Of a stretch of 64,000 nt of DNA, positions 30,301-43,800 are shown piece after piece. Within the stretch, counting starts at the first letter, position 1. Each line of letters starts with the position of its first letter. The DNA comes from a virus. Below the pieces are notes generated by a model, which worked only from the letters and a program-made list of their open reading frames with translations, ran no database searches and was not told where the DNA came from. The DNA lies in the IMG/VR virus record IMGVR_UViG_3300013117_000027; one strand, given 5' to 3'. A program made the position numbers and the translations under genes.

Positions 30301-32684
30301 ATACAGAAGCTAATATAATGTCTATCAATGATAATATAAAAGCTGGAGCAGAGTACAGTCTTCCTGAAAGATGTTTCGATAAAGATACCAATATTGAAAC
30401 TGATAAAGGAATAAAGCGTATATGTGATGTATTGATTGGTGACTATGTGAGAACACATGATAACAAGTGGAAACAAGTATATAACACTTCTAATAGGAAT
30501 GTTGATCATAATGAAAAGGTGTATGAAGTTAAAGTTCAATCAAGAGAAAAAGTTAAAGTTACAGAAGAGCATCCATTCTATGTAATAGAATCTAAACAAT
30601 GTCATAATTGGTCTCATAAAGATTCTGTTTGCGTTCTAAAGAATAATAAGAAATGTAGTAAATGTAAACACACATATTATAAAGAATATGAACATCAATG
30701 GATACCAGTTAAAGACCTAACTAATAACCACTTTGTAGCAACTCCAATATTGGATATAACTGAAAACTCAGAACCTATCGATGTGTATTCATTATTAAAA
30801 GAATATACAAATATAGAAACAGTTGATAATATTATACGATTCTCAAATTATAATGTTAAAGGAAAAAAACAAGGGATTCAGATACCAAGATATATAGAAC
30901 GAACACCAGAACTATATGAGTTATTTGGATGGTATCTTGCTGAAGGATCAAGAAATTCTGCAAAATACCCATATAATGGCTTAAACTTCGCTCTTAATTC
31001 ATCAGAAGAGAATATAGCACAACGAATATGTTACTTATTTAATCGTATCTTTGGAGTTCGTTCTTTCTCTATTAAGAATGTATCAGATAATGGAATAAAT
31101 GTAAGAATATATTCATCTCTGGTTTCGTTAGTGTTTCAGAAGTTATTTAAACATGGCTCAAATAATAAATATATTCCATCACTTATATATAATACATCTG
31201 AAGATAATCTTAAATCTATGATTAACGCTGTATGGTTAGGTGATGGTTGTTATAATAAGAATAGAAAAATAATAAAAGTTATATCATCTTCTTTAATATA
31301 CGATATAAATAACTTGTTATTAACATTAGGATATATGCCGAGTGTTAACTTTATTAAAGGTGGAAAGAAAAAAAAGATATATCGTAATAATAAAGAGTCA
31401 GTTATTAGTGACTGTTGGACTGTTGAGTGGATTGAGAATCCAAAATGTACAAAAGATAGATATATACATGATGATTATTATTATACACGAGTATTATCTA
31501 AAAAAAACATATCAATAGATGAAGTATATAATATCGATGTTATTGATTCTAATTCATATATAGCTAATGGTTTGGCTGTTCATAACAGTATTGGGGCTGC
31601 TTGGGAAAACTTCACTAACACTAATACGTTTCTTGTCAACAAGTTCTTTGCTTACAAAGATCCGTTAGAGCATTACAAACAGTATCAATTGTACGGTCAA
31701 GAATATACACCATGGACAGATCCTTATGGAAGTTTTATAGCTCCTCAAACTAGAACTATGATGGCTCAAGAGAATCCTATAAGTGCTGCAATTAATTGGG
31801 GTTTTGGACTTCCTTATCTATTAGGTGGAAGAGCTGGAGGTATATATGGAGCAGTTGCAGGAGGTGCATATGGTGCTATTCATGGTATGGTAAGAAAAGC
31901 TTCTGGAACAATTTATACACCAGAACATATGCAGAAAGAGCGCCAGATAAATGACTATTTCGATCAGTTAAAATTCGACAGGAACATGAGAATGGCGTCT
32001 TTATCAGAAGGTCTTACTAGGAAAGAATATAGTAATCAAGCAAGATCTACAATGACAAGTATACTATCTCAAGGTGGTAAGTATACAGATATGTTTAGAG
32101 CTGCTCAGTCTAGCGAGAAACCATATCTAGCTGCATGGTTAGATGAAACTAATCCAGAACGTAGAGATGAGATAGCTAGATTCTTACCTGAGAAGATGGG
32201 TCATGCAATGAGAACATTTTGGCATTCAACTGATAACAAGATGTCTACAAGAGATTTCTTAGAATCTACTAGTGCTGACTTGGCTAACGGAAGAAAGACC
32301 ACGCCTTATAGTATGAATATGTTAGATCCTACTGTAGAACTAGAGGATATAAAACTTAAAACTATACAAAATCAAGGTCTTAATCAACACGATTTTGGTC
32401 TTGGATGGCAAGAACAAATGCTTAGGGTACAGAATCAGATAGATGATATGCAGATAGCTGAGATATCAGCCAGACCTTTAGAACCTGTAAATGTTAATAC
32501 AGCTGGTATGAAAGCAGCTATATACGAGATGCTTAATCAGATGGGACTTAGTGGACGTGTACAATTATATGTTAATAATCATAGTACTAATAATAACAAA
32601 GTAACGTTGACTGTTCAACGAGACAGATTACAAACTTTAAAGCGAAGTTTTAATTCAAGGAATAGGTGGATGAGAAATGTCTAA
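21369..32684 (+). CDS. Giant virion protein at the tape-measure position; four inteins and a PD-(D/E)xK nuclease domain; about 2100 aa after splicing
   Basis: Follows the chaperones; Gly/Ala-rich hydrophobic segments; four C...HN|S/T intein units; GTRYHEQ...SGHVD...EIKT...HVGQINFY nuclease motifs. Confidence 0.8.
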   Translation: MAYYDPRTSDERYYDPHRNTSGSLTSSVTSGIGSFAKNAVGYMVMYSAMTFAGGVTSKFIGNIAKTQALKGTGTIAKRISALKAPTLGKIAKQFTPVRHAATRVRMATRPLRQAYKKRARLLERVNRKDSLLGDKARFTSAFRNGKTLAATAGNLLYKHGIKGSVAGYAWDSVAGNLPMYGLEEKAAWNVPGHVMNYAKYMKDNIITFSAFGAIGPIYKGARGTIGLGLRNVMEKNTAFRDKILGNLAKITRPRYSSVQAPTKATNSIFKEDVNNFNTANSYNVFNKAIDATKAAGKTFYSAFIENARTMFAEAGRHGSHNIHKPTKGSVTSFLSRFKKNITDHWQMHREQARYGRTVGVLESEGMRTMKTFEHLGNIESTAGQALEQTTAKNTNMNLINSIRDDQLKPKNFLAQVLSLRPTVTGDVMNTDYISRVGSNFAKYFPKSKAHVVDQAMSNVRMGNDYYSRGKFNVDLSMLSPLHQLKRVTNKIMGLNLSFMIGLPPVGRDLSLGNITGWNSLMGGSVRSTPFNKDTTGLGLIVKSGGVTDTRGNLVQRGTPRTLQQLAADTLGENMSDNLNVSLINGKFYAADGVNLTNLNSMNTVLKYSHPEIFGKAGEAKLSNIKEWIYHSSREPGSIMEANKWLTDANRNTASNPFQWAMKKLDWGVPEAIPNAWRKLKEILTPGRIRHAGKNLNHSQDLQAEMWENLLSKRIDYDKLKAHIPIMRDSMEHTGQEVGMLMQSPTIYQEIAHNSRYLQANQMDSAIFHSDEKFMTKLFNMQESALDQNDVFWKLMKNPDSKAIYETALWNPKKAKDAIPFKRQGRLSDYNSMNVLKTQFVTEGLNVDYSMTNMHPFVDAADTLFKQGHISGTQSTAMKMYGFVSTLFADGNLDNFAKGTPTPQDKTALGAVINTFKKRHNIELEHAMDYISRTEFRTPSRDGKLFQTLKETILDPRLLPSVREQVYDKSPFFALSVGDNGSGKFQTGIKKALDIGAERLTNLIKMTTGLRRDPFKYGDGVRGAARFISTRGGQLAAAGLAYKALDALIADNPMLDETALDQGITGFIADNVAKTHLLSSRIANMTGIAGVGRYLDGLMPGFVSSAPGAIVGAALNWRRGITETAVGAVKGAISNRVLSPLMPDMTKTYDQLEAEYSGKEEVPIIEGRMWLMGTTPWQGKRVIGWRPNWYQRMHSRWKASDSLYGSELRKLLHEPIFPVGISVGDIIDPYYMERKHYFSRPYAECIYPQAFVQIHNGIKMVKDIVKGDKIYDVDGVIYNVKDVTSRNVKNNENIHSVNLVGIHEPLIISEDHKQPIIKDIKCKYKSASNKSCVGEHKGICKKCKSKRTSFEIDWVETKDINVGDFLVKPIVRPVYNGDVIQLSKYINFRNYVVEKDICYIIDKNNKKTKTNAQNTFRIDDKIAYYFGLYLAEGWINFGRNKPHTVNTVHNMKEYDYVKTYITHMCSVFKCSYSEEKHDNYVTFHIHNVLLAELIFGLFNKASDKKCIHFTKEIDRKIVAGIIFGDGHYDISNVVLTNTSLNIHGYVTTVLENDMIPICIKKHCNNGKQSYRTSFPYSYLDEYRMKYDSNYKNKCIQTPKGRSNRIYFRNGSILRRVLSNDIIEYKDKLYDIVTDSPKQSFTLLSHCIHNSADFGADIPLGLGPIVSATLGQVIKPKKQMHREFMEGDDVIGDSDFAANPPPTYKEMRGMMKTGTWNSNSIGSRSSFMGTARYGGTKLYGQRMADQVLDNFESAMGLVGFAGHSIRQGLTSDAAIIPTVETAGRIASQSRSYYDMNLGGLGVYCLPYDGKVLTPNGLTNIGEINSGDIVYDQCYSKKKVTNTFSRICDDDERMYTFTLNAGKTQIDCTWNHPLAIYRKETCHDGKVKPCIPNSKKHCTICTKQDKEVYWDWVQAQDVKVGDYAVMPLPKSDTSVETVDLSAYSDYSFSDKYIYTRAGNGYITALEMLEHNPSLTRKQLREYVDDKDAKEALYSIRKNKIPTRYGRYLDITHNIAWFIGWWLAEGSSNIRNEEVMFSLNINELHIAKTLGKIYAESFGGKFRIYEYPDRTICVLVIKNKVLASYLKSFGNVYTKSMNSLVHLSDNKLRALIDGIIQGDGWINHKLQRGGFKSASSKLVRDVWLSLFRLGIQSSITIDYLEKANGRLLNGKVRKDHVRSELQMSRGGYTNYSDVVLNHKKSKDVSTGRVFTRDGNLYIKISNISSLDCSGTKVYDIEVEESHCFIGNYLLLHNSEALRRFVTKPDWREYGVNPIPNLMPNWLPGKFLKGDPFCVTASTMIEVNGNNLKRAEDVTTDDLIRTHTGKLVKPSFIKKRSMKNSESLYRLKVSSLSSFPIEASEEHPIWTESGWKHIKDINIGEYVGYPISDINDLTTTDKILDCSKLTPYPFDHKYIYTSGCDQEFVDMISYIETIQSSFKRGELKNLLFKNNWDRRKFERAQVAVRNNINRRIPRYIDISSPEWGSLIGYYLSEGCINIKDDKFIGVGFAFNINEKEYHDEVMSCLKSVFNIHSKLYQAKGTNGCSVIVNNLAIPHILCGLFGRYFDEKHIGLQHIDSIKETVRTLINGDGSYYFDRGKPRLSLKLENHQLLYQIRQILLSYGYVGYINDNNLIIRGQAAKECALFINTTKYKDTKDSSYTCRHTYIKDGYVWMRVFDNIVIKNENVYGFQVDTDDSFCTAGIATHNTKINNGELRLPGPAYEKTHAGVDKSMPARASMLGSPTEHSIQYFTGLLPPHLKEQYDILETGTRYHEQIQQWLAAENLLVQAEALVYDEKNNISGHVDAIIKDGMGGRGKKALEIKTISEEGLKRLDGPKWQHVGQINFYMNQLKLKKGGILYVSRDNPANFKMFDVNYSHNRLEKDLEKLHKARSVSSQMLAKSIEGDGYGFSYSWLDRLYILSDVAPTSKEYKEAKFIVERQIKAGMLDPDGIAKYHRAKKHRDATVRKYELYPLRFKGRVMSPDTEANIMSINDNIKAGAEYSLPERCFDKDTNIETDKGIKRICDVLIGDYVRTHDNKWKQVYNTSNRNVDHNEKVYEVKVQSREKVKVTEEHPFYVIESKQCHNWSHKDSVCVLKNNKKCSKCKHTYYKEYEHQWIPVKDLTNNHFVATPILDITENSEPIDVYSLLKEYTNIETVDNIIRFSNYNVKGKKQGIQIPRYIERTPELYELFGWYLAEGSRNSAKYPYNGLNFALNSSEENIAQRICYLFNRIFGVRSFSIKNVSDNGINVRIYSSLVSLVFQKLFKHGSNNKYIPSLIYNTSEDNLKSMINAVWLGDGCYNKNRKIIKVISSSLIYDINNLLLTLGYMPSVNFIKGGKKKKIYRNNKESVISDCWTVEWIENPKCTKDRYIHDDYYYTRVLSKKNISIDEVYNIDVIDSNSYIANGLAVHNSIGAAWENFTNTNTFLVNKFFAYKDPLEHYKQYQLYGQEYTPWTDPYGSFIAPQTRTMMAQENPISAAINWGFGLPYLLGGRAGGIYGAVAGGAYGAIHGMVRKASGTIYTPEHMQKERQINDYFDQLKFDRNMRMASLSEGLTRKEYSNQARSTMTSILSQGGKYTDMFRAAQSSEKPYLAAWLDETNPERRDEIARFLPEKMGHAMRTFWHSTDNKMSTRDFLESTSADLANGRKTTPYSMNMLDPTVELEDIKLKTIQNQGLNQHDFGLGWQEQMLRVQNQIDDMQIAEISARPLEPVNVNTAGMKAAIYEMLNQMGLSGRVQLYVNNHSTNNNKVTLTVQRDRLQTLKRSFNSRNRWMRNV
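25098..26312 (+). mobile_element. Intein 1 with LAGLIDADG homing endonuclease (405 aa)
   Basis: RPYAE|CIYPQAFV...SEDHK...FGLYLAEG...AGIIFGDG...LYDIVT...CIHN|SADF. Confidence 0.92.
26772..28115 (+). mobile_element. Intein 2 with LAGLIDADG homing endonuclease (448 aa)
   Basis: GLGVY|CLPYDGKV...TWNHP...IGWWLAEG...DGIIQGDG...VYDIEVEESHCF...LLHN|SEAL. Confidence 0.95.
28233..29471 (+). mobile_element. Intein 3 with LAGLIDADG homing endonuclease (413 aa)
   Basis: KGDPF|CVTASTMI...SEEHP...IGYYLSEG...TLINGDG...VYGFQVDTDDSF...ATHN|TKIN. Confidence 0.95.
30372..31586 (+). mobile_element. Intein 4 with LAGLIDADG homing endonuclease (405 aa)
   Basis: SLPER|CFDKDTNI...TEEHPF...FGWYLAEG...AVWLGDG...VYNIDV...AVHN|SIGA. 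Confidence 0.95.
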
Positions 32685-35600
32685 CTATGATAAAGATAAA
32701 CCAAAACCTAACTGGTATAATAGAGTAGCTGTAGGATCTATCGGTCTTGCTAGTATTGGTGTAGTAGCTTATAAGATGGGCGGTCCTACAGGAAGACTAT
32801 TAGATAATATAAGAGATGAACTTGTAGAGAAAGATGCAGCAGATAAGTATCTTAAGTGGTCAAGGAAAAGTGTTGCTCCTGAAGATGTTAAAGATCTACA
32901 GGCTAAAATTGTTACTTCATCAAGAGGCGATACTATGCTAGCAGGCGGACCTCCTACAGATGAAATGATGAACGAAGCTATAGATAAAGAGTTTAAGAGA
33001 CACCAGATAACAGATGATCAACTGTTTAATAAAGCTGCTAGAATGGAAGCTGATATAGAAGCAGCGTTTAATCAGGATATCCATGGTCATGCTACTGATA
33101 AGTTAATGAAGTTAAAAGAGTTTAGACGTTACCATAAAGCTCCAACAGATGCTGAGATGAGAAGAGATATGGTAGTTTCTAAACTAAAACATCAGACCAT
33201 AACTGATTATCATAGAACATCTTATGTTGGCATGGAAGGAGTGCCAGATATAGATCTTACAGATCCTGATATCGTTAGAGATCCTTTTGCTAAGTCTGAA
33301 GAGATAGATAAGTTACATCAACATTATATGAAGAACGATAAGGTGTATGCTAGAAAATATAACAAAGCATTACATGCTTCTTTAAAAGAGATTAAAATTT
33401 CTACTGCAACATCTACTATAGCTAATCCTACTCTACAGAAGAATGGGATATTTGGTACTAATAGTGTACCTAAGTCTATGGGTTCAGTAAAGAATATGTG
33501 GTCTAGTATTCTCGATATAGAGGGCGCAAATGCTTATACGTTAGAACCTGATAAAAGTGTTATGTTACATATAACTGGTCAGGCTGGATTTTCGTCTGAT
33601 GAGATAGTAGCTAAACCTACGTCTTTTGAACTAAAGATGGATAACTCTACAAGGATAAAGTATCAAAAGTATATGCCTCAGTTAAAGAGGATTCAAGGAA
33701 GACTAGAAGAGATTCAGACTCAACTTCACGGTAGGCGCGGTTCTCACGTCATATCTGATATACAAATATCTGATCAAGTTTACTCAGTAGGATCTAATAG
33801 GCAAGTATCTTACGCTGTGGTCGAATGGGATGTTAACGTTGGTACCACGAAGAAGCACGTTACAATACCTATACCTATGGCTGAGAATAACACTGTTCCT
33901 AGTATTAAAGGTATTAATGGAAGACTACGAGCTAACGTTAATTATGTGTCTGCTAATCCATTCGGTCTTGGTTCAAGACAGGTTGTTAATACTACACAAA
34001 TGGCTTTCGAAGAATTACATAATTCACTTACAAGTTCTATGATGAATGAGATGGAAGTAGATACCTCTAAGTTTCAACGTAGAATAGTGGATCGTATTAG
34101 TAACAGAATAGAAAATGGAGTTAAACCTCTTGCTAATGAAACTAGAGATTTCTTTAGTGCTCACCAGGTGAAAGTAATAACTAATGATACTATTATGAAA
34201 AGGAAGGGTGAATCAAGAAAAGGTTTTTTTAAACAGTTAAGAAGTGGCGGTAAGAGTTTAAGAAACATGCAGTTAATAAAGAATAATCCTCATGAATACG
34301 TTACGATGTTCCTCGATATAGAGACTATTAACTTAATGACAAATTCTCCACAGTTACAAAAAGGCGATCCTTTTACAGGAATATGGCAATATGGTATTGT
34401 AGAGCAAGACATGGGTACTGGTAATATAAGAAGAGTTAAACAGATAGCTTCTGATCATGTTCTTAATGAACAGTATATGTTAATAGATAAACATATTAAA
34501 GATGGTACTTTAAAGAATGCATTAAAAGACAATGGTAATACAGGTAAGAACCTTAGATCTATGGCAGAGTATGCACAGAGAACAGTAGGTGGTTCAGATG
34601 ATCTAGACGCTTTACTAAGAATGAGAGAGATGATAAAAGCTCAAGCTAATGTTGATAATAGATACGTTAATTCTTTGTACAAAAATCCTATTAGAACATC
34701 TAATGATTTCGCGAGAGTGATAGACAGTGAGTTAAGAAATGCACAGATGAGAGCTGCTAAAGAGGGTAAGAAACTTATAATAGGTACTGCTAATGGAGAT
34801 TTTGACTTAAGTATCATTGGTAATCTATTAGGAGATTCAGCGTATGCTTCTAAGTTTGATCACCTTGATGTACAGACTATGACAAGAGCTATGACATTAG
34901 GGTTGTACGACCAACCTGCTATGTCTGCTGAGAATCTAATGCCGTGGTATGCATCTAAAACTGGAAGACCAGGTCTTTCTATGTTGTCTTTATCTAAAGA
35001 TCCTGTAGGAACTGTTAAAGCTATAAGTACTGGAGTAACACCTACTGCTCATGTAGGTACCAGGCGTGCTCTAGATATGATGGTAAACGGAGAATTATCT
35101 AAGTATGGTAAGTGGGCTATAGCGGCTGGGCACTCATCTTCTGTATACGATAATGTTAATGCCCTAGGTATAATGCATATGCAAATGGAGTTCTTTGAGA
35201 AAGATGGGTTTCAGACAGCTAGAAATATAGAAGATTTTGTACAGAACGCATCTGGTTATGATGTTAATAAAAACCTTAAATCTCACTTAGAATTAGAGTT
35301 AGGAAGACTTCCTGGACAACAACAATGGTTTTCTTATGGACTAATGTCGTCTAATGCTGCTTCTAAGAAGATAGGAAGTATGGTACATATAGCTCATATG
35401 TGGCCTGGACTATCTCTTAATCCTGGTAACAAAGATTTACACCAGTTCGCTAGACACGACATGGTAAGGAAAGATACTATTAAGAATCCTCATCGTGAGT
35501 ACATGATGAAGAATCCTTTGAGATCTAATGTTGTTACTAAGGTAGAACACTGGATGACAAGAGTGTCAGACTTTGACATGAGGTACTATGCTAATGAGTT

Positions 35601-38600
35601 ACAGTTTAATATGGCTTACGCTGTTAATATGACAGGTAGTAAGAACGGTCTTTTCAAGACAGCGGCTGATACATTAGACTTTACAGTTCATTCTACTACA
35701 AGTGTAAGGGCAGGGGATTTGCCTGCTGACTCTAAACTTGCTAACGAGTTAACAAACATATACTCTAAAATTACAAAGAAAGTTAAAGACTTGTCTAAGA
35801 CTTTACACGGTGATCCTAATCACACTATCAGTGGCGAGATGTGGAAAGAAGCTTGTTCTCTTGTCTTAGCTAAGGAAGGTGTTACATTGCCTACTTTTAC
35901 AAGAGATGCTAATGTTCCAATGAAGGTTTCTATAGGTGGTGAAGATCATGTATTTAACTCTCAACTAAACGGACGAGTAACATCGTTACGCGTTGATGGA
36001 CGTCCCGGTGAGAAAGGAACACCGGGATTTATAGCGGATATAATGTTTGAGGCATCAGGTAACGATCTTAATAATGCTGCAGTTAATCATATGGGAACTA
36101 AGAGTATTGTCACAAGACTTAATGTTAAATCTGCCGAACTAGCATATGGTAAGTTTAATGTACTTCCCGATAACTATGCTATTATGAACTTTGATTTCTT
36201 AGACAAGAAATATTGGGGATCAATGAAAGAGATGATGATTAGGAAAGGTTTGGGTGTGTCTATGTATAACGCTAAACATGCAGCTACAGCAGAGCAACGA
36301 GCTTATGCTGTTAAATCTTACAAGAGAATAGCTAACTTAATAAGAGGTTCTTTTCCTGTTACACAGAATAAAGATGGTAGTGTTCGTTTTGGACCAAGAA
36401 ATCTTTCAGAAGATCCTAAAGAAATAATGAAAAAAATGTCAGCTATACGTATGAACGACATAGTTTACGAACTAGGAGCCGTAGGACATGAAGCGTCTTG
36501 GACTCGTAAGACGATGGAATCTTACTATAATCTTAGAGGTGGCGGTGATATGTGGAGAGGGCGAGATAAGATTAGAAATGAAGTGGCTGATCTTTTATTA
36601 GGTCTAGATAGTGCTGCTAGTAAGATAGAAAAAAGAACTCAACAAGTAATGACTACTGCTGATCAACGTACTCTTATCAAATTATTAGATCCTTTAGGAA
36701 TGATAGAAGATAATCTGAGACAACGAGATGAACTAGTTGGTGGAAGTATAGAATCGCATTATAAGACATTGACTAGAGATAAACAAGAGCAACTTATAAA
36801 AGGAGCACGTATAACTCCTTTCTTACAAGAGTTACCAGATTTACAAGGAGGTGGTAGTTTCTTAGGATTCTATGGCGGGTATCAACCTTCAGCTATTTAT
36901 AATAATAACGCTGGAAGAGATATAAAGTATATGCATGACGTGAAGTGGCAAAAGTCTTACTTTGAACAAACACATGTAAAAGACTCGCTATTCTCTACAA
37001 GAACAAGAAGACTTTTAAGATCCTCGATGGGTTATAGGAGACCTGGTTCAGGCGGTAGTAAACAGTTAGATGTAGCTAAGAAGTTCTTTAGACTGTCAGA
37101 GGCTATACAGAACAAAGGGGTTGCTGACTTAGCATCTGAACATATGTTAACCTTAGATAATATAGATGCTATTATTCACAGAAGAACTACAATGAAAGCT
37201 TTTGAAAGAGACTTAGAATCTCTGGCCGATAATAAGAATACACACGAGATAGCAGCTATTAGTGATTCTCTAGATGATATGCTTAAAGATGTTAACAAGG
37301 CAGAGTCTATTAATAAGGACGCAGTTGCTCATTCAATATTCCAGAAGACTACTGGTGAAAGACGAGAGATATTAGAAACTGTTGCTAAGAGAAATAACTA
37401 TCTACATCAAACAGAGATACAAGAATGGGCTGACCTTGCTGTTAAGAAGAAAGATATATTCTTCCTTCCTAGTAAATTTAAACATAAGGATAAGATATAC
37501 GGTAACGAAAGACTTACTATAACATTAGAGGATGCTGCTGAAGCTTTTAACAAAAAAGTTTTACCTACTGAACCATTAGATTCAAACGCCTTTCTTTCTA
37601 TGTTACGACTAGTCCAAAAAGGTGAGAAGTATAAGACATTGTCTAAAACTAATCAACAACTATTCGATATTGTCGATCTAGGTAATGGGAAACATGAGAT
37701 ACACTTAGGAGGTTTTCTAATGCCAGCACATGGACACGTGGGTAATATTGCCGATATGATGGATTCACAACAATACGGTATAGGTACACAGACTACTAAG
37801 ATGTCTTTTGACATGATGGAAGGATATTATATGTATGCCAAAGATATGATAGAAGGTAGAACTGATAATCTAGGTGCTCATTCAACAAGACTTTTCACTG
37901 ATCAGATGAAGATGTATACACATGCTCTTTCAATGGACAAAATGTCTGCTATGTTTAAGTCTACACAAACTGGAGTTATGCAAGGATTTCAAGCTGTTTA
38001 TAAGTCGGTAGATACACATATAGCTTCAGCTCATCAGGTAATTCAAGATATTGCATCAGACGCTCCTTATATAAAAAAGTGGTTTGCTACTAATAAACAA
38101 TGGACAAAAAAAGATGTCACAGGGGTACTTAACAGATTTACTCAGATGAAACTTAATACTATGACTGCTATGACAAGTACGTTATTCGATGAGAAACAAG
38201 TTGCAGTAAATTTTACTACAGGCAAACAAGAAATGATAGCTGACATGATTCAGAAAGGTACTAAAGAGTTTCAAGAGATGGTAGCAGAAATGAAACTAGG
38301 AAGAAGAACATTACCTGGAGGAGTTGCAGTAAGATTTCCAATGCTGCCTAATGGTGTTAATCCTGGATTCGAAGGTCCTCTGTTTGCTATGCCAGATGAA
38401 ATAGGTACAGGTTTACTAGGCATGAGTAATAATCATATGTACATGGTAGAACCTATCGGAGAACTCGTGAAAGCTGATAATGATGTAGACTTAATGGCGG
38501 TAGTAATGAAGTCTTTTAGTACTATAGAAGATATAGATAGAGCGTCTAGTGAATCTAGGTATAGTCTTAATAAGTTAATGTCGAGACTACAAGGTGGAGG

Positions 38601-39999
38601 ATATCAGAAAGCTTACAACGACGCTAACTATGTATTAAGTACTTATTACGATAAAGGTGAACGTATGGCGCGAGTGTCTAAGTTAGATTCATCTGGTAAA
38701 TTCGTAGTCAATAAAGTGAGGTACGACGCATTAGATTTTGTATCTAACGCTCAAGGTATGGTGCGAGAAACTGGTAAGTTAGGGGGAGCACTAGCTCCTT
38801 TATCTAGTACAGAATTTGTAGCAAGATCTAACCTCCATACATCTACTAAGGCACTAGGTGACCATATAGCAACATCTGCTATGGGAGGATTCTCTAAGAA
38901 TCAGATTGGTCTATGGACTAATACTATACAAAAGAAAGTTCATGAACTATTTATGGCGAACGGTGCTATGGCTACAAAGTCTACTGTCTTAATGGACATG
39001 ATAGGCGATCTTAACCATGGACTAGCTTCTATAGCACAGAGTCCTATTAAAGCTACAAAGCATGGCGATCTAGAATCAGTGATGGATATGACAAAGATGT
39101 TATCATGGATAACAAATCCTACTAAGTCTAGAGTAGAAGATTATAATATGGCTTATAGTACATGGGTAGATCAGTTCCCTGTAGAGAAGCAGGAAGCTAT
39201 GGGAGATATCTTTAGAGTATGGACTAAGAGATCTTCAGTGTTTAGTCTGTTAGATAAATATGATCCAGAAGCAGCTAAGTTTGCTCAACGAGAACAAGGT
39301 ATAATGATGGGTAAACAAGGCACTAACTTTATGGACTACGTATCTTACAAGATGATAGGAGAAAGTAAAGTTCAAGCTAAGTTAGATAATGCGTGGAGAA
39401 TGGCTTACGAGAATGTTATGAATCTTAACGATAAGATGCGTGGCGGTATTAATCCTAAAGATGCACAACAAGCATGGGCTACTAAGTTACAACGTGAACT
39501 AGCAGAGACTTCTTTAGATAAGAGATTTAATGAAGTATTTGGTGATGCTATTACTAAGGCTAAATTTGGAATAAAACGCGGAGGCAAAGGAGCAGCAATC
39601 GCCGGACTAGCATTCCTTGCGCTTAACATGTTTAGACCTAATCAGATGTCTAGTAGTTCTAATCCATTAGATGCCTTTGTAGATCTAGGAATAGATATAC
39701 ATGGTAATAATTCTACTAATGAATTACAGTTAGGAAAAGAAGTACCATTAGATCTTGTTAACGCATCGTTTTCTAAAAAAGCTTTCATAGAAATGCAGAA
39801 TAATAATAGTGCAACTATTAAGAGAGCACAAGGTAATATGGGTATGGACGCTATTAAATCTAGGTACATGACTCCTACAATGGTTCACTCACAGTTTAAT
39901 AGTGGAGGAAGTACTACATATAGTAATCTAACCTCTAACATAGGTATCTTCGGTTCTGGTGAGACGCAAAGAAGAGCACGAAGAATTGGCAGTATATAG
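32677..39999 (+). CDS. Giant protein: putative single-chain two-barrel RNA polymerase-like enzyme fused to a DEDDh exonuclease domain
   Basis: FLDIET / ANGDFD / HSSSVYD exonuclease motifs; beta-like HMGTKSIV...YAIMN...GSMKE; beta'-like VRFP...KADNDVDLMAV. ORF is certain; function is from motif reading. Confidence 0.6.
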   Translation: MSNYDKDKPKPNWYNRVAVGSIGLASIGVVAYKMGGPTGRLLDNIRDELVEKDAADKYLKWSRKSVAPEDVKDLQAKIVTSSRGDTMLAGGPPTDEMMNEAIDKEFKRHQITDDQLFNKAARMEADIEAAFNQDIHGHATDKLMKLKEFRRYHKAPTDAEMRRDMVVSKLKHQTITDYHRTSYVGMEGVPDIDLTDPDIVRDPFAKSEEIDKLHQHYMKNDKVYARKYNKALHASLKEIKISTATSTIANPTLQKNGIFGTNSVPKSMGSVKNMWSSILDIEGANAYTLEPDKSVMLHITGQAGFSSDEIVAKPTSFELKMDNSTRIKYQKYMPQLKRIQGRLEEIQTQLHGRRGSHVISDIQISDQVYSVGSNRQVSYAVVEWDVNVGTTKKHVTIPIPMAENNTVPSIKGINGRLRANVNYVSANPFGLGSRQVVNTTQMAFEELHNSLTSSMMNEMEVDTSKFQRRIVDRISNRIENGVKPLANETRDFFSAHQVKVITNDTIMKRKGESRKGFFKQLRSGGKSLRNMQLIKNNPHEYVTMFLDIETINLMTNSPQLQKGDPFTGIWQYGIVEQDMGTGNIRRVKQIASDHVLNEQYMLIDKHIKDGTLKNALKDNGNTGKNLRSMAEYAQRTVGGSDDLDALLRMREMIKAQANVDNRYVNSLYKNPIRTSNDFARVIDSELRNAQMRAAKEGKKLIIGTANGDFDLSIIGNLLGDSAYASKFDHLDVQTMTRAMTLGLYDQPAMSAENLMPWYASKTGRPGLSMLSLSKDPVGTVKAISTGVTPTAHVGTRRALDMMVNGELSKYGKWAIAAGHSSSVYDNVNALGIMHMQMEFFEKDGFQTARNIEDFVQNASGYDVNKNLKSHLELELGRLPGQQQWFSYGLMSSNAASKKIGSMVHIAHMWPGLSLNPGNKDLHQFARHDMVRKDTIKNPHREYMMKNPLRSNVVTKVEHWMTRVSDFDMRYYANELQFNMAYAVNMTGSKNGLFKTAADTLDFTVHSTTSVRAGDLPADSKLANELTNIYSKITKKVKDLSKTLHGDPNHTISGEMWKEACSLVLAKEGVTLPTFTRDANVPMKVSIGGEDHVFNSQLNGRVTSLRVDGRPGEKGTPGFIADIMFEASGNDLNNAAVNHMGTKSIVTRLNVKSAELAYGKFNVLPDNYAIMNFDFLDKKYWGSMKEMMIRKGLGVSMYNAKHAATAEQRAYAVKSYKRIANLIRGSFPVTQNKDGSVRFGPRNLSEDPKEIMKKMSAIRMNDIVYELGAVGHEASWTRKTMESYYNLRGGGDMWRGRDKIRNEVADLLLGLDSAASKIEKRTQQVMTTADQRTLIKLLDPLGMIEDNLRQRDELVGGSIESHYKTLTRDKQEQLIKGARITPFLQELPDLQGGGSFLGFYGGYQPSAIYNNNAGRDIKYMHDVKWQKSYFEQTHVKDSLFSTRTRRLLRSSMGYRRPGSGGSKQLDVAKKFFRLSEAIQNKGVADLASEHMLTLDNIDAIIHRRTTMKAFERDLESLADNKNTHEIAAISDSLDDMLKDVNKAESINKDAVAHSIFQKTTGERREILETVAKRNNYLHQTEIQEWADLAVKKKDIFFLPSKFKHKDKIYGNERLTITLEDAAEAFNKKVLPTEPLDSNAFLSMLRLVQKGEKYKTLSKTNQQLFDIVDLGNGKHEIHLGGFLMPAHGHVGNIADMMDSQQYGIGTQTTKMSFDMMEGYYMYAKDMIEGRTDNLGAHSTRLFTDQMKMYTHALSMDKMSAMFKSTQTGVMQGFQAVYKSVDTHIASAHQVIQDIASDAPYIKKWFATNKQWTKKDVTGVLNRFTQMKLNTMTAMTSTLFDEKQVAVNFTTGKQEMIADMIQKGTKEFQEMVAEMKLGRRTLPGGVAVRFPMLPNGVNPGFEGPLFAMPDEIGTGLLGMSNNHMYMVEPIGELVKADNDVDLMAVVMKSFSTIEDIDRASSESRYSLNKLMSRLQGGGYQKAYNDANYVLSTYYDKGERMARVSKLDSSGKFVVNKVRYDALDFVSNAQGMVRETGKLGGALAPLSSTEFVARSNLHTSTKALGDHIATSAMGGFSKNQIGLWTNTIQKKVHELFMANGAMATKSTVLMDMIGDLNHGLASIAQSPIKATKHGDLESVMDMTKMLSWITNPTKSRVEDYNMAYSTWVDQFPVEKQEAMGDIFRVWTKRSSVFSLLDKYDPEAAKFAQREQGIMMGKQGTNFMDYVSYKMIGESKVQAKLDNAWRMAYENVMNLNDKMRGGINPKDAQQAWATKLQRELAETSLDKRFNEVFGDAITKAKFGIKRGGKGAAIAGLAFLALNMFRPNQMSSSSNPLDAFVDLGIDIHGNNSTNELQLGKEVPLDLVNASFSKKAFIEMQNNNSATIKRAQGNMGMDAIKSRYMTPTMVHSQFNSGGSTTYSNLTSNIGIFGSGETQRRARRIGSI

Positions 40000-40025: not shown

Positions 40026-40202
40026 ATGTTTATAGAAGCTAACATTACAATAGATGTACCCGACGGCGTAGATATTACGCCTATTATACAACAAATAAAA
40101 GCAATACTAAGTCGTACTAACGACATGGATACAGATGTTCACATTATAGAAGTTGATGACCCTATAAGTACTAATCCTGTAAATTTATCAAAGGTTATAT
40201 AG
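40026..40202 (+). CDS. Small hypothetical protein (58 aa), missing from the ORF track
   Basis: AAGGAG at 40015-40020, ATG at 40026, MFIEANITIDVPDGVDITPIIQQIKAILSRTND..., TAG at 40200-40202 abutting the next ATG. Confidence 0.7.
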   Translation: MFIEANITIDVPDGVDITPIIQQIKAILSRTNDMDTDVHIIEVDDPISTNPVNLSKVI

Positions 40203-40871
40203 ATGAAAATGTTCAAACAATGCTCTAAGTGTGGAGAGGTAAAAGAGTTAAGTGAGTTTAATAAAAAGAAAGATGGTAAGTTTGGTGTCCAAACTATGTG
40301 TAGAATGTGTAGAAGAGATTATAGAAAAAGGAACTATAATAAGGAAAAGAACGCATCACAATGTCGTAACTACAGACTTAATAATATTGATAAGTTTAAG
40401 TCTTATGATAAACTTTATTATATAAATAATAAGTCTTTGTGTAATAAAAGATCAAAAGAATACTATGAATCTAATAAAGATAGGTTAAAACTGATGCAAA
40501 AAAATAATAGATCTCATATAAATGCTAGCAGGAAACAACGTTATATCAATGATACTGGATACAGAATAGAATGTAATATAAGAAGTAGAATCTTTGGATC
40601 ATTGAATGGATTAAATAAATTCACATCTACAAGAGAACTAATAGGTTGTACAATAGATGAACTCAAAACGCATCTTCAGTCTACAGCTATTGTTAATGGT
40701 TACAAAGACTTCGATATTAATAGCTACTTAGGACAAGATTATCATATAGATCATGTACGTCCATGTTCATCTTTTAATCTTGAAGACGAAGAAGAACAAC
40801 AAAAGTGTTTCCATTATACTAATCTTCAGATTCTTTCTGCTGAAGAAAACCTTAAAAAAAGTAATAAGTAG
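40203..40871 (+). CDS. HNH homing endonuclease with N-terminal zinc finger
   Basis: CSKC...CRMC at the N-terminus; YHIDHVRPC...CFHYTNLQILSAEENLKKSNK HNH motif at the C-terminus; Lys/Asn-rich. Confidence 0.9.
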   Translation: MKMFKQCSKCGEVKELSEFNKKKDGKFGVQTMCRMCRRDYRKRNYNKEKNASQCRNYRLNNIDKFKSYDKLYYINNKSLCNKRSKEYYESNKDRLKLMQKNNRSHINASRKQRYINDTGYRIECNIRSRIFGSLNGLNKFTSTRELIGCTIDELKTHLQSTAIVNGYKDFDINSYLGQDYHIDHVRPCSSFNLEDEEEQQKCFHYTNLQILSAEENLKKSNK

Positions 40872-40879
40872 GAGACTTC

Positions 40880-43800
40880 ATGGCAGTAGAAAGATATCAT
40901 TTTAATAGTTCAGCAACATCAGACCTATCAGAAGTGTCTTATAACCAATTATCAAAGTATCTTAAGTTAAAGTTACACGAAGTAGAAAAGACTTCTGAGA
41001 AAGAAAGTAATCATACTGTGGTAATGGAAGACCTTAGTCAAGATCCAAATCCTGTATGGTTATCACAGTATAATGTAGAAATTCTAAAAGAGATAAGAAA
41101 GACTTTATTCGAAGATCTTGAGATAACAAAACCGCCTAGTCTTAATAGTGGTAGAGAAACTTTATCGATGCTCGATGCTCCTCTTCCTGGTGATGTACTT
41201 ATTATAAATAAATCAAATCCTGATACTAGTAAACAATACACTATTATTACATCGATTGATAGTGGTGGACGCGTGTATACGTTTCCAGCTACATCAGAAG
41301 TAGATCTACGATATGTTACTCATGTTTATAGATTCGATATTCTCTCAGATGATAATGCAGCAGAGATTATATCTAAGATGAATCAAACAATTGAAGACGC
41401 AGCTATCCTTCCGAAACCGAGAATGTCTGTCGATATAAATGTTCCTGTGTACACAGAAGAACCTCGTGGATTATTACAGATAGGTGATATTAAATTCTTA
41501 ATAGCTCCTACTCAAATGAGTTTTACTACACAGAACGGTTATCAACACTTTCCTACTGTTAGAACTAAAGGTAATCCTAAACTTCCTACGTTAGCAGAGA
41601 CTAAGTCTTTAAATTTTACGTTAATATTCCCTAATACAGAAGCTATTAATAATCAGTTGGTTCCTTTATATGCTATGTTTAAAAGGACTCCGTTCGTGAA
41701 TCTTTATAACAGAGATATATCTGAATTTTACAGTACTATAAGAAATAGAGATACTAAGTATATACCTGTAGCTCTTGAATCTATCACAGTAGAATCTGTT
41801 ACTGGATTTCCTAATACTCTACAAGCTAATATAACTGTCTTACCTTTCCAACACAAAGGTGTAGGAGAAACATTTGAAGCGTTAAAGACATTTGGAGATG
41901 TAAAATCTCAACAATACTTAAAGCGAGATATATCAGAAGGTAGGGTAGTAGAACAAATTGAAGCAAGATTAGAGAACAGAGAAGCTACACCACACTCTAA
42001 CAATATGCTTACAAATGTTATACACTCGTCTGATAACTTCGAGAAAAGTGAACCTTTCAGAGCTTTTTATCAATCGTTAATAGCAGAAAGAAAGTATGTA
42101 GAAAATGACCTAGGTGAGATAGTATATAAAACAGATGGTAGTTCTATCCCTCTTTCTACGTTCAGACCTAAACATATAGAGAATCAGTTACATTACTATT
42201 CGGCTCAGGCTAATAAGAAGAATATGACTTTCACATATGAGTTTATACCTCAGAATCTTAGAGAGTTTTCAGATGATCTTCGTGCATTAAGAAAACAAGA
42301 GATAACTACTCTAGGTAGTGAGACAGCGGAGATGTTAAAGATTATTACTAGTAGAGATTCTAAGTTTAAAAACTTCATGAGAGAAGCGCTTATTAATAGA
42401 CAAACATTCTACGATCAGATAGGAAATCATTTTAAAAAAGCTGAGAGGTATATACATGATTTCTTAGGTTTTCATAGAATTAATATTGATTCAAGTCCTG
42501 GTCCAGAGATTACTAATCTCCTAGAGTTACTACTAGAAGTGGGTGCTCATCAGTTTCCAGTAACCGCATGGGTAACAGGAACAGGAAGAGGAGTAGTATC
42601 TACCACTGCCGATCTTATAAAGAATGTATCAGATGGTAACTATTCACTTGGTAATACAAGTGGAGAAGAATTACTAAATATTTTAAATGGTGTTATGACA
42701 TGGTATGAAGGGCCTGACGAAACACGACGGTTAGGTGCTGTGGATGCTAATACTTTATCGGATATTATATCTGACCAGATATTAGATTATCTTGATGCAG
42801 TATCTGACTCTAAAGAAAACGGTGAGTCTGAAAAAGAAAAGTGGGCACAGTTCTTTGATCGTTTCTTTAAAGCGTTTGTAGATCCATCTATTATAAGAAA
42901 TTTATCTGCAGGTCAAGAGATCGTAGCTTTTAAGACAGAGAGAGATATTATAGAGATAGACAATGTTAACGATGTGGTTAATGGTTGGGGACTACAGTTT
43001 TCTAATAAGCTTGTTCCTATACATCTTAACGGTTTTCAATTTCCTTATTATCAACACGTTGGATGCGATGATGTCAATATCTTTCTTAATATAAAGTCTA
43101 TACAAGGAGGCCGAGATCAAGGTCTTAAAGAGAGACTGTCTTTATTAAATGAAAGATTACATACTACAACAAAGATTGTTACATACAATGCGCCTGAGTT
43201 AATAACTCACTTAGATCCAAGATTAAGTGTTAGTGTACAAGGTAATGATCTTGGACATATATTTAATGTATTCGGTATAAGAAAAGTTGTTTATAATGGT
43301 AGTAATGTATCAAGTGTGGAAGGTAAACCTGATTGTTGGTCTATTAATCTTAATCTTACCCAGGCTAACTTTACTTTAAAAGATTATCAGTCTATCGTAG
43401 TAAAGAAGTCTATATCCGGAATAGAAGATGAGGTCGCTAACTTACTACTTAGATCTAGAATAACTCCAGATGGAGGTATAGAGGTAATAGATTACAAGGT
43501 TAATACTGACAGATTAAAAGATTTAGATTCTGTATCACCTGAAGCTACAAAAGGATTTGTGGGTAAGTACTTTGGAGATTGGGCAAAGTCTATGATACCT
43601 AATAGTACTAAGGATCTAGTTATTCCAAAAGAGTATGTTATAGGTTCTCCAGATAATACTAATATATTCGGAGATGCCTCATTAAGTGGTGAGCAGACAA
43701 GACGTATTAATAATATGATCATGTCTATGACTTTCTATAAACGTTTTATCCAAGAAGCTTATGAACAATGGCGTGGTACACAAAAGGATTCTGAACAAGA

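What the first reader, a model, noticed from the sequence alone, without database searches (positions are those of the whole stretch)
35600..38520. Candidate single-chain two-barrel RNA polymerase hidden in the tail module
Seen: the 2440-aa protein contains VAVRFP (38332) followed about 48 aa later by KADNDVDLMAVV (DxDxD at 38476-38490). This mirrors the R-x-P...NADFDGDxM catalytic barrel of RNAP beta'. Upstream (about 35600-36250) is a collinear series resembling the beta barrel: NMAYAVNMTG...DFTVH (cf. NVLVAFMPWNG...FTTIH), GRVTSLRV, SGND...NHMGTKSIV (cf. GDKxxGRHGNKGVI) and YAIMN...WGSMKE (cf. DIVLNP...IGQILE). Established: single-chain two-barrel RNAPs occur in phages (crAss-like phi14:2 gp66, virion-packaged; SPbeta YonO). 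Inference: this is a highly diverged virion-delivered RNAP of a myovirus. The first conserved beta lysine (GDK) is not evident and the FDGD loop is altered, so it may be atypical or inactive.
Basis: partly seen in the sequence, partly recalled or inferred. Interest (0 to 1): 0.9.

Follow-up and report, generated by a model that had tools for sequence, protein, structure and literature searches.

The report
Hidden RNA polymerase in phage tail protein
A 2440-residue protein in the tape-measure slot of an uncultured large contractile-tailed phage carries a very diverged RNA-polymerase-type catalytic core fused to a 3'-5' exonuclease, so this phage group probably injects its own transcription enzyme.

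Summary
ORF 32677-39999 (+), 2440 aa, contains VAVRFP and KADNDVD exactly where stated. DxDxD alone occurs by chance in 47% of shuffles. However, R-x-P followed 47-50 aa later by D-x-D-x-D sits at the same place in all 25 full-length homologues (17-38% identity), and these five residues are among only 16 invariant columns.

The flanking giants are homologues of Bacillus phage 0305phi8-36 gp145 and hub gp147. The target is therefore the positional counterpart of gp146, a virion protein confirmed by mass spectrometry and annotated "tape measure".

No Pfam, PHROG, PDB-sequence, GenBank-phage or crAss gp66-profile similarity was found.

Verdict: a new family of two-barrel RNAP-like enzymes, probably virion-delivered. 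Activity and template are untested. The same scan's first-stage readers had also noted this stretch in another window.

The parts
32677..39999 (+). Whole gene: a 2440-aa multi-domain protein in the tape-measure slot of the tail module. Its start overlaps the stop of the upstream giant gene by 8 nt.
   Evidence: It has 25 full-length homologues of 2268-2501 aa. The gene order giant1-target-~60 aa ORF-giant3-baseplate J is kept in L001, L010, L011, L012 and one further contig.
32719..32784 (+). N-terminal moderately hydrophobic Gly/Ala-rich segment (aa 15-36) ending in the conserved KMGGPxG. It may be a membrane- or tail-lumen-interacting element.
   Evidence: G36 and P37 are present in 24/25 homologues. 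No window of 19 residues reaches Kyte-Doolittle 1.5, so it is not a classical transmembrane helix.
34279..35244 (+). DEDDh (DnaQ-like) 3'-5' exonuclease domain, aa 535-856, with long insertions.
34315..34323 (+). ExoI motif D547-x-E549 (LDIET).
   Evidence: Invariant in 25/25.
34792..34806 (+). ExoII motif N706-G-x-F-D710 in this protein; relatives have one more residue (NGxxFD).
   Evidence: D710 is invariant, N706 is in 24/25 and G707 in 23/25.
35131..35151 (+). ExoIII motif H819-x5-D825 (H-x4/5-D across the family).
   Evidence: H819 and D825 are invariant in 25/25.
35968..36246 (+). Candidate first half of the beta-like barrel (DPBB-B), aa 1098-1190, including NHMGTKSIV and the conserved FLxKxYxGxxK motif (K1177, G1181, K1184).
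   Evidence: Alignments to single-chain RNAPs start here: QDE-1 at model 131, P74 gp62 at 127, gp96 at 127. G1181 is invariant and K1177 is in 24/25. Model confidence is low here (pLDDT 50-67).
36823..36966 (+). Candidate second half of DPBB-B, aa 1383-1430 (four strands), with the conserved [IV]K[FL][RQ]xxY motif (K1423, K1426, Y1428).
   Evidence: The model has strands at 383-425. One QDE-1 alignment starts at model 410 against QDE-1 residue 783. Conservation is shown. The assignment is an inference.
36967..37968 (+). Mostly helical connector between the barrels, aa 1431-1764, aligned to clamp and N-terminal parts of RNAP largest subunits.
37969..38511 (+). Beta'-like catalytic barrel (DPBB-A), aa 1765-1945, with an internal insertion.
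38332..38340 (+). R1886-F-P1888 strand motif (compare NRAP of beta' and YRIPNQ of crAss gp66).
   Evidence: R and P are invariant in 25/25. R1322 and P1324 are invariant in the gp66 family alignment.
38476..38490 (+). Metal-binding loop D1934-N-D1936-V-D1938 (family consensus KADxDGD).
   Evidence: Invariant in 25/25. hhalign places it on gp66 DFDID 1361-1365, but not significantly.
38851..39066 (+). Candidate bridge-helix and trigger-loop region, aa 2059-2130. It has a 36-residue helix with SKxxIGxxTNxxxxR followed by GxxxxGxxGxxQxxIxxGKH.
   Evidence: The model has helix 1059-1094. Q2121 and K2128 are invariant; I2077, N2082 and H2129 are in 24/25. All RNAP alignments run through this region to model 1148-1160. 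The element assignment is inferred.
39574..39801 (+). Conserved C-terminal module, aa 2300-2375. It has a Gly/Ala-rich hydrophobic segment GKxAAIxAxxxLxLNxFRP followed by NPLDxFxDLG...NASFSKxAFI. It is probably the hub- or tail-anchoring end.
   Evidence: This is the best-conserved stretch of the protein. F2319 is invariant; K2304, P2321, S2364, F2365 and A2369 are in at least 23/25. A look-alike hydrophobic segment occurs about 120 aa from the C-terminus of 0305phi8-36 gp146 and of ME3_36 (by eye only).
21369..32684 (+). Upstream giant gene (3771 aa, interrupted by inteins), a homologue of virion protein gp145 of 0305phi8-36 and of ME3_35.
   Evidence: Intein/LAGLIDADG Pfam hits. tblastn gives E 3e-16, 1e-11 and 4e-9 to gp145, and 5e-6 to ME3_35.
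40026..40202 (+). Small 58-aa ORF, the counterpart of the 57-66 aa ORF that follows the target in all related loci.
40880..48283 (+). Downstream giant gene (2467 aa), a baseplate hub homologue with a C-terminal lysis-type domain.
   Evidence: phrog_20474 at 1.4e-41. tblastn gives E 8e-16 to the ME3_37 hub and 1e-12/6e-12 to the 0305phi8-36 gp147 hub.

Best explanation
The gene encodes a tail-lumen, tape-measure-position virion protein whose central and C-terminal 1100 residues form a single-chain two-barrel nucleotide polymerase of the RNAP/QDE-1 type. Its parts in order are a beta-like barrel, a long clamp-like connector, a beta'-like barrel carrying RxP and DxDxD, and a bridge-helix-like region. 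This core is preceded on the same chain by a DEDDh 3'-5' exonuclease.

Proposed mechanism: the protein is assembled into the tail between the gp145-like protein and the baseplate hub and is expelled into the host on sheath contraction. There it transcribes the first phage genes independently of host RNA polymerase. Later genes are handed to host polymerase redirected by the phage sigma factor. The exonuclease acts on the entering DNA or on RNA 3' ends.

Shown here: the motifs and their invariance, the predicted folds of both enzymatic domains, the conserved synteny, and the homology of both flanking genes to proteins of a phage whose middle gene product is in the virion.

Inferred: virion packaging of this protein, ejection, DNA-dependent RNA synthesis, early-gene specificity, and the role of the exonuclease.
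For: 1. Catalytic signature. R1886, P1888, D1934, D1936 and D1938 are invariant in 25 homologues at 17-38% identity, among only 16 invariant columns. The consensus is KADxDGD and one member reads GGDFDGD.

2. Fold of the core.
- The AF2 model of aa 1001-2160 has pLDDT 72.7.
- The Foldseek PDB top 50 are all RNAP largest subunits (best E 8.8e-4, prob 0.99).
- The viral BFVD search hits giant-virus and jumbo-phage RNAP subunits.

4. Virion context.
- The gene lies after the sheath, tube-like and chaperone-size genes and before the hub and baseplate J.
- This order is kept in the five related contigs examined, which include one of the most diverged relatives (17% identity).
- The start overlaps the upstream gene.
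- giant1 and giant3 are homologues of 0305phi8-36 gp145/gp147 and of ME3_35/37.
- 0305phi8-36 gp145 and gp146 are annotated as virion proteins identified by mass spectrometry (PMC2147016).

5. Precedent. Virion two-barrel RNAPs exist in crAss-like phage phi14:2 (gp66, 10.1101/2020.03.07.982082) and fused to the tape measure in P23-45 (PMC10770324).

6. A phage sigma-70 gene elsewhere in the genome fits a hand-over to host RNAP.
Against: - No sequence method links the family to any RNAP. Pfam found nothing in 20 members. PHROGs, PDB phmmer and hmmsearch were also empty. hhalign against a 20-sequence gp66 profile aligns only the Asp loop, at E 0.08.
- The beta-like barrel has pLDDT 50-67, and I could not inspect coordinates or per-residue superpositions.
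- The positional counterpart in 0305phi8-36 (gp146) has no DxDxD, so the polymerase is not universal in this slot.
- No proteomics, transcript or activity data exist for this protein.
- The contig is only about 61% complete, so another RNAP or a DNA polymerase may be encoded off-contig.
- A globular 1600-residue enzymatic payload sits oddly with a pure ruler function.
Confidence: 0.68

Rival explanations
1. It is primarily the tape measure (tail-length ruler) of the phage. The polymerase-like and exonuclease-like modules are accessory cargo or relics, and the protein's essential job is structural.
For: The slot is the same as 0305phi8-36 orf146, which was assigned as tape measure from tail length (PMC2147016). 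Length is tightly kept at 2268-2501 aa across homologues as low as 17% identity. The most conserved stretch is the C-terminal module next to the hub gene. gp146 lacks DxDxD.
Against: All five DEDDh residues and the RxP/DxDxD residues are invariant across 25 very diverged sequences, which indicates selection on catalysis rather than relics. About 1500 of the 2440 residues are predicted as folded enzyme domains, not an extended helical ruler. This rival is also compatible with the best explanation, because in P23-45 a tape measure and an RNAP share one chain (PMC10770324).
Confidence: 0.15
2. It is a two-barrel polymerase with a different chemistry from DNA-dependent transcription. It could be a proofreading DNA polymerase or primase (PolD-like logic, with the DEDDh domain as editor) or an RNA-dependent / end-to-end copying enzyme like QDE-1.
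For: The best single structural matches are the RNA-silencing polymerases QDE-1 and RDR2. A DEDDh exonuclease on the same chain is the classic layout of proofreading DNA polymerases, and exonuclease domains of family B polymerases are among its top fold matches. No family A or B DNA polymerase or T7-type RNAP was found in the 140 kb available.
Against: The gene is locked inside the tail operon in every relative examined, which is not where replication genes lie. Primase-helicase and RNR genes are elsewhere in the genome. PolD DP2 is not among the top 50 structural matches, although its absence from the list does not exclude it. According to PMC10770324, phage single-chain RNAPs cluster with QDE-1, so QDE-1 as best hit is what a phage DNA-dependent RNAP would give. 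The contig is incomplete, so a missing DNA polymerase means little.
Confidence: 0.08
3. The polymerase resemblance is spurious. The region is an unrelated fold, and AlphaFold plus a chance acidic motif produce a false RNAP match.
Against: The motif pair is invariant at one position in 25/25 sequences. Three different search modes return exclusively two-barrel polymerases at the top. DPBB-only domains land exactly on the motif-bearing segment with rmsd 2.5 over 86/86 residues. The AF2 run used no templates.
Confidence: 0.06

Closest known systems
P23-45 gp96 (Thermus siphovirus): virion two-barrel RNAP fused to the tape measure protein (PMC10770324; PDB 8h2n/8h2m)
   Different: No sequence similarity was found. 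The host virion here is contractile-tailed. The polymerase lies in the C-terminal two thirds of the protein, not at the N-terminus. It has a roughly 330-residue connector, where gp96 is clamp-less. It carries a DEDDh exonuclease that gp96 lacks. At 2440 aa it is about half the size of gp96 (5002 aa).
crAss-like phage phi14:2 gp66 virion RNAP (2180 aa; PDB 6VR4; 10.1101/2020.03.07.982082)
   Same: Both are giant virion-module proteins of similar size with RxP followed 39-48 aa later by DxDxD (gp66 R1322/P1324 and D1361-D1365). In both, most of the chain lacks recognisable homologues. Relatives of gp66 are also found fused to other nucleic-acid enzymes (helicase domains).
   Different: Profile-profile comparison finds only the Asp loop, at E 0.08, so this is not a member of that family. 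gp66 has DFDID, whereas this family mostly keeps the canonical Gly (DxDGD). gp66 belongs to a podovirus-type particle in which it is a capsid cargo. gp66 (6VR4) did not appear among the listed structural matches, which does not exclude similarity.
QDE-1 / RDR2 cellular RNA-silencing polymerases (PDB 7y7p, 7w84)
   Different: They are eukaryotic and not virion-associated. Sequence identity in the aligned residues is only 8-10%. They have no exonuclease domain.
Bacillus phage 0305phi8-36 gp146 and Acinetobacter phage vB_AbaM_ME3 gp36 (middle giant gene between the gp145-like protein and the hub)
   Same: They occupy the same slot, and both flanking genes are sequence homologues of the window's flanking giants. 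gp146 is a virion protein confirmed by mass spectrometry. gp146 shows an LDIETTG ExoI-like string. ME3_36 shows R-E-P followed 43 aa later by DHDQD, and its BFVD model matches the core model here (prob 0.97, E 1.2e-2).
   Different: The family HMM finds no detectable sequence similarity. gp146 has no DxDxD, and ME3_36 is 1603 aa with no clear DEDD motif. Neither is annotated as an enzyme.
DnaQ-like DEDDh exonucleases (Pol III epsilon, RNase T, oligoribonuclease, ERI1)
   Different: The domain is about twice the usual size because of helical insertions. The ExoIII spacing is H-x5-D in most members. There is an extra invariant Asp (D731). It is not detected by Pfam. It is fused to a two-barrel polymerase, an architecture I did not find described.

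Membership tests
Two-barrel (double-psi beta-barrel) RNA polymerase superfamily | Beta'-like DPBB carrying the metal-binding D-x-D-x-D loop | tested here: met
Two-barrel (double-psi beta-barrel) RNA polymerase superfamily | Second, beta-like DPBB N-terminal to it, with conserved basic residues facing the active site | tested here: inconclusive
   Alignments to QDE-1, RDR2, P74 gp62 and gp96 extend back to model residues 127-135. K1177, K1184, K1423 and K1426 are conserved. However, the region has pLDDT 50-67, and no DPBB-only hit was returned for it.
Two-barrel (double-psi beta-barrel) RNA polymerase superfamily | Bridge helix and trigger loop after the catalytic barrel | tested here: inconclusive
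   A long helix spans aa 2059-2094, followed by a motif with invariant Q2121 and K2128 and near-invariant H2129. RNAP alignments run through it. No per-residue superposition was available.
Two-barrel (double-psi beta-barrel) RNA polymerase superfamily | Overall fold most similar to known members | tested here: met
Two-barrel (double-psi beta-barrel) RNA polymerase superfamily | Template-dependent RNA synthesis abolished by Asp mutations | not testable with these tools
   This needs biochemistry.
Multisubunit RNAP beta/beta' (Pfam RNA_pol_Rpb1/Rpb2 families) | Significant match to the curated sequence profiles | tested here: not met
   hmmscan of P0001 and of 20 family members at E<=1 gave no RNAP family.
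crAss-like virion RNAP (gp66 family) | Profile-level sequence homology to gp66 orthologues | tested here: not met
   hhalign of the 25-sequence profile against a 20-sequence gp66 profile gave no significant hit over the full length. Cut regions aligned only the Asp loops, at E 0.08.
Virion-packaged / ejected RNAP (functional class: N4 vRNAP, gp66, gp96) | Protein present in the virion | not testable with these tools
   Only indirect evidence exists. The positional counterpart gp146 of 0305phi8-36 is in virions by mass spectrometry, and both flanking genes are homologous.
DEDDh (DnaQ-like) 3'-5' exonuclease | RNase H-like exonuclease fold | tested here: met
DEDDh (DnaQ-like) 3'-5' exonuclease | ExoI D-x-E, ExoII N-x2-3-F/Y-D and ExoIII H-x4-5-D catalytic residues | tested here: met
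   D547, E549, D710, H819 and D825 are invariant in 25/25.
Tail tape measure protein | Gene between the tail chaperones and the baseplate hub, with length conserved within the lineage | tested here: met
   The position is shown. Family length is 2268-2501 aa. This is the same slot as orf146 of 0305phi8-36.
Tail tape measure protein | Predominantly extended helical ruler whose length sets tail length | tested here: inconclusive
   Two thirds of the chain is predicted as globular enzyme domains. The N-terminal 500 and C-terminal 280 residues were not modelled, and no tail length is known.

The most novel reading that the evidence does not exclude
The middle giant gene of the tape-measure cassette in a whole clade of large contractile-tailed phages (the 0305phi8-36 / ME3-like structural lineage and its uncultured relatives) is a modular carrier of ejected nucleic-acid enzymes. 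In this family it would be a self-contained 'resect-and-transcribe' machine. The DEDDh exonuclease would strip the 3' strand of the entering genome end, creating the single-stranded template that the fused two-barrel polymerase then transcribes. Known virion two-barrel RNAPs such as gp66 prefer single-stranded template. This would make the first step of infection independent of host polymerase, supercoiling and SSB.
Probability: 0.12. Interest if true: 0.9.

Novelty: new variant of a known kind. Interest (0 to 1): 0.78.

Why it matters
Virion-delivered two-barrel RNA polymerases are so far known from crAss-like podoviruses and from one siphovirus lineage, where the enzyme is fused to the tape measure. 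This finding would add a third, sequence-unrelated family in contractile-tailed phages, again in the tape-measure slot. That would suggest that carrying the first transcription enzyme down the tail has arisen, or been kept, repeatedly.

The fusion to an apparently active DEDDh exonuclease is an architecture I did not find described for any two-barrel polymerase. It poses a clear biochemical question about what the exonuclease acts on.

The finding also flags that 'tape measure' or 'minor tail protein' annotations in large myoviruses can hide enzymes. Examples are 0305phi8-36 gp146, ME3 gp36, and the UniProt entry A0A8S5SD80, which is annotated 'Minor tail protein' and matches the core model. 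ME3 offers a cultured relative on which part of the idea could be tested.

Tried and rejected
Searches and comparisons that found nothing:
- Pfam and PHROGs on the protein, and Pfam on 20 family members, found nothing relevant.
- phmmer and profile hmmsearch against PDB sequences found nothing.
- megablast and tblastn of P0001, P0024 and P0033 against 50,697 GenBank phage records gave no match.
- The search for related loci in IMG/VR chose uninformative peptide patterns and found nothing.
- The family HMM against ME3, Ma-LMM01 and the 0305phi8-36 cassette gave no match.
- tblastn of ME3_36 against the phage collection matched only ME3 itself.

hhalign against gp66, both as a single sequence and as a 20-sequence profile, aligned only the Asp loop, non-significantly. 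One full-length run gave a spurious match of ExoII to the gp66 Asp loop.

BLASTP of the target against giant1 and giant3 found no paralogy.

Technical failures:
- A first 1200-residue structure job and a first 1212-column profile search failed for size. Both were repeated with shorter input.
- The protein atlas call was unavailable.

I checked the 'moraphage' jumbo-phage paper (PMC12619734) as a possible prior description. Its gene content is T4-like, and its authors report no RNAP, so it does not cover this family.

phi14:2 gp66 (6VR4) and PolD DP2 did not appear among the 50 listed structural matches. This is not evidence against similarity.

I did not use complex prediction, sequencing-run look-ups or RNA tools, because none bears on the claim.

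Full report
**Where the window lies.** The window is positions 31346-95345 of a 140-kb IMG/VR viral contig that CheckV rates about 61% complete. Nearly all genes are on the + strand. PHROG hits identify a portal (2275-4338), a major head protein (6989-8326), a 968-aa tail sheath (12572-15478) and baseplate wedge/J genes from 49619. This is therefore the structural module of a large contractile-tailed phage.

Three giant ORFs lie between the tube/chaperone-size genes and the baseplate. They are 21369-32684 (3771 aa), 32677-39999 (2440 aa, the target, P0001) and 40880-48283 (2467 aa).

**The observation.** VAVRFP is aa 1883-1888, with the R1886 codon at 38332. D1934-N-D-V-D1938 is at 38476-38490, and R1886 to D1934 is 48 residues.

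A DxDxD in a protein of this size and Asp content is not remarkable in itself. It appears in 47% of shuffles, and RxP-(35-55)-DxDxD appears in 2.4%. The evidence has to come from homologues and from structure.

**Homologues.** The word-indexed search gave two relatives. A full hmmsearch of 1.84 billion cluster representatives gave 33 hits. About 25 of these are full-length proteins of 2268-2501 aa and the rest are fragments. All come from metagenomes and none carries a relevant name.

In the 25-sequence alignment (17-38% identity to P0001, mean column identity 27%) only 16 columns are invariant:
- Y332
- D547, E549, D710, D731, H819 and D825
- G1181
- R1886, P1888, D1934, D1936 and D1938
- Q2121, K2128 and F2319

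The RxP...DxDxD pair is at the homologous position in 25/25 with a spacing of 47-50 residues. The family consensus is KADxDGD, and one member reads GGDFDGD.

**Sequence methods find no known family.** The following were all empty or non-significant:
- Pfam and PHROGs on P0001, and Pfam on 20 members
- PDB sequences by phmmer and by profile
- tblastn of three diverse members against 50,697 GenBank phage records
- hhalign against a 20-sequence alignment of crAss-like gp66 orthologues

The hhalign run aligns the two Asp loops and the preceding PDE/LPE strand correctly, but only at E 0.08.

This agrees with the statement in PMC10770324 that two-barrel RNAP families share no significant similarity beyond the DxDxD region. 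It also means the protein is not a member of the gp66 family.

**Structure of the core.** A template-free AlphaFold2 model of aa 1001-2160, built on the 25-sequence alignment, has mean pLDDT 72.7 and pTM 0.53. Confidence is 85-94 around RxP/DxDxD but only 50-67 at aa 1090-1180. Four searches were run on it.
- Foldseek against the PDB: all 50 top rows are largest subunits of multisubunit RNAPs. They include bacterial beta', Pol I/II, plastid and phage AR9 enzymes (best E 8.8e-4, prob 0.99).
- BFVD: giant-virus and jumbo-phage RNAP subunits appear, plus closer unnamed relatives (see "A cultured structural analogue" below).

The beta'-like barrel (DPBB-A, aa ~1765-1945) is well supported. After it comes a 36-residue helix (aa 2059-2094) with SKxxIGxxTNxxxxR, followed by GxxxxGxxGxxQxxIxxGKH with invariant Q2121 and K2128. 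In position this corresponds to the bridge helix and trigger loop, which in gp66 lie at 1529-1559 and 1598-1636, that is 168 and 237 residues after DFDID. That assignment is an inference.

The beta-like barrel is less secure. Alignments to the single-chain polymerases reach back to model residues 127-135. One QDE-1 alignment instead starts at model 410. This suggests a barrel built from aa ~1098-1145 and aa ~1383-1430 with a large insertion between the two halves. The conserved basic residues K1177/K1184 and K1423/K1426 would fit.

I could not inspect coordinates.

**A second enzyme.** The other invariant block is a DEDDh signature:
- ExoI: LD547-x-E549-T
- ExoII: N706-G-x(1-2)-F-D710
- ExoIII: H819-x(4-5)-D825

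The exonuclease domain is therefore confirmed, and by its residues it is likely active. The scan's first-stage reader had also noted these motifs (e1-5878260). I tested that note here, and it holds.

**Genomic context and the virion question.** The order [~900-1000 aa] - [~100 aa] - [~180-210 aa] - giant1 - target - [57-66 aa] - giant3 - [~272 aa] - [~170 aa] - baseplate J is the same in the window and in five related contigs. These include some of the most diverged members, at 16-17% identity. The target's start always abuts or overlaps giant1's stop. In the window an HNH endonuclease gene (40203-40871) has been inserted after the small ORF.

The target is not a paralogue of giant1 or giant3.

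The key link came from the BFVD hit to Acinetobacter phage vB_AbaM_ME3. Its structural module (portal, capsid, sheath, chaperonin, ME3_35, ME3_36, hub ME3_37) is annotated by homology to Bacillus phage 0305phi8-36. In that phage the cassette is gp143/144 chaperonins, gp145, gp146 and the gp147 hub.

tblastn shows the window's flanking genes belong to the same lineage:
- giant1 matches gp145 collinearly (E 3e-16, 1e-11, 4e-9) and ME3_35 (E 5e-6).
- giant3 matches the ME3_37 hub (E 8e-16) and the gp147 hub (E 1e-12, 6e-12).

The target is therefore the positional counterpart of gp146. That protein is 2537 aa, was identified in virions by mass spectrometry, and was assigned as tape measure from its length (PMC2147016).

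This is the best available support for a virion location, and it is indirect. The middle gene evolves too fast for sequence comparison, and the family HMM finds nothing in ME3, 0305phi8-36 or Ma-LMM01.

The middle gene also appears to be modular:
- gp146 has an LDIETTG ExoI-like string but no DxDxD.
- ME3_36 has R1178-E-P followed 43 aa later by D1221-H-D-Q-D, and a BFVD model of its second half matches my core model (prob 0.97, E 1.2e-2).
- All three proteins have a look-alike Gly/Ala-rich hydrophobic segment about 120 residues from the C-terminus (by eye only).

**Mechanism.** I think the most likely reading is a tail-lumen protein in the tape-measure slot that is expelled on contraction. 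It would act as the phage's first transcriptase, as shown for P23-45 gp96 (tape-measure-fused; PMC10770324) and, with a different delivery route, for phi14:2 gp66.

A sigma-70 family gene elsewhere on the contig (133228-134076, minus strand) fits a later hand-over to host polymerase. No T7-type RNAP and no family A or B DNA polymerase was found in the 140 kb, but the contig is incomplete.

The role of the exonuclease is open. It might trim RNA 3' ends, attack host nucleic acids, or resect the entering DNA end to expose single-stranded template. The last option is attractive because gp66 transcribes single-stranded or denatured DNA, but it is speculation.

The rivals are a mainly structural ruler with enzymatic cargo (compatible with the above), a polymerase with other chemistry such as a proofreading DNA polymerase or a QDE-1-like enzyme, and a spurious structural match. 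They are weighed in their own sections.

**Novelty.** I found no description of this family or of a DEDDh-plus-two-barrel fusion in the literature searches. The nearest candidate, the 'moraphage' lineage paper, describes T4-like phages and reports no RNAP.

The kind, a virion two-barrel RNAP associated with the tape measure, is known. The family, the contractile-tail setting and the exonuclease fusion are new. I therefore rate it a new variant of a known kind with high but not top interest, because nothing about activity or packaging has been shown.

**A cultured structural analogue.** In the BFVD search the two best matches are A0A7R7G2L5 segment 2 (E 7.3e-8) and A0A8S5SD80 segment 1, annotated 'Minor tail protein' of an uncultured siphovirus-labelled contig (E 6.9e-6). 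These are probably relatives of the family that sit unrecognised in UniProt. I could not retrieve their sequences.

**Limits.** The alignment is shallow (25 sequences). No model coordinates could be inspected. No per-residue superposition was possible. HHpred-scale profile libraries were not available. The N-terminal 500 and C-terminal 280 residues were not modelled. The host is unknown.

Noticed in passing
window 21369-32684, and genome loci L003, L004, L006 and L007: The genome is unusually rich in inteins. Intein/LAGLIDADG/Hint hits occur in giant1, which has several and is 3771 aa against 2050-2560 aa in relatives. They also occur in a 1417-aa ORF, the DnaG-DnaB primase-helicase, an RNR-like ORF, an FnlA-type dehydratase and a glycosyltransferase.
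   Followed up: partly
window 40203-40871: An HNH/endonuclease VII-like gene (phrog_1035, 5e-17) is inserted between the small 58-aa ORF and the hub gene. The related loci have no gene there.
   Followed up: partly
genome G000:C1:133228-134076 (-), locus L013: A phage-encoded sigma-70 family factor lies here (Sigma70_r2, 3.1e-11, above Pfam cut-off). It sits in a leftward gene block at the right end of the contig.
   Followed up: no
L029 18173-22984 (Acinetobacter phage vB_AbaM_ME3 gp36, KU935715 33172-37983): This 'hypothetical protein' of a cultured jumbo myovirus has R1178-E-P followed 43 aa later by D1221-H-D-Q-D. Its BFVD model matches the RNAP-core model (prob 0.97). It may be an unrecognised RNAP-like protein.
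   Followed up: partly
L031 7623-15236 (Bacillus phage 0305phi8-36 gp146): This virion protein, confirmed by mass spectrometry and annotated 'hypothetical tape measure protein', contains a classic ExoI-like string YLDIETTGLS at aa 1222 but no DxDxD. Whether it has a DnaQ fold was not tested.
   Followed up: no
proteins P0074, P0082, P0095, P0096, P0118 and others: Many crAss-like gp66 orthologues of 2700-3400 aa carry superfamily-1 helicase Pfam domains (PF13604, PF13245, PF13086 and others) on the same chain. Fusing the virion RNAP to another nucleic-acid enzyme is therefore not unique to the present family.
   Followed up: no
L003 2120-2300 (genome left end): A run of short GA-containing hairpins (for example gaacgaagtgaatc and ggaactttagttcc) lies just downstream of leftward genes. 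First-stage notes e1-5878249 and e1-5878250 flagged them. They could be promoters for a virion polymerase, but nothing was tested.
   Followed up: no
window 15525-16238 and 16287-17627: Two adjacent paralogous ORFs both hit phrog_9206, which is labelled 'major head protein'. They lie right after the sheath, where tube proteins are expected, so the PHROG label is probably misleading.
   Followed up: no
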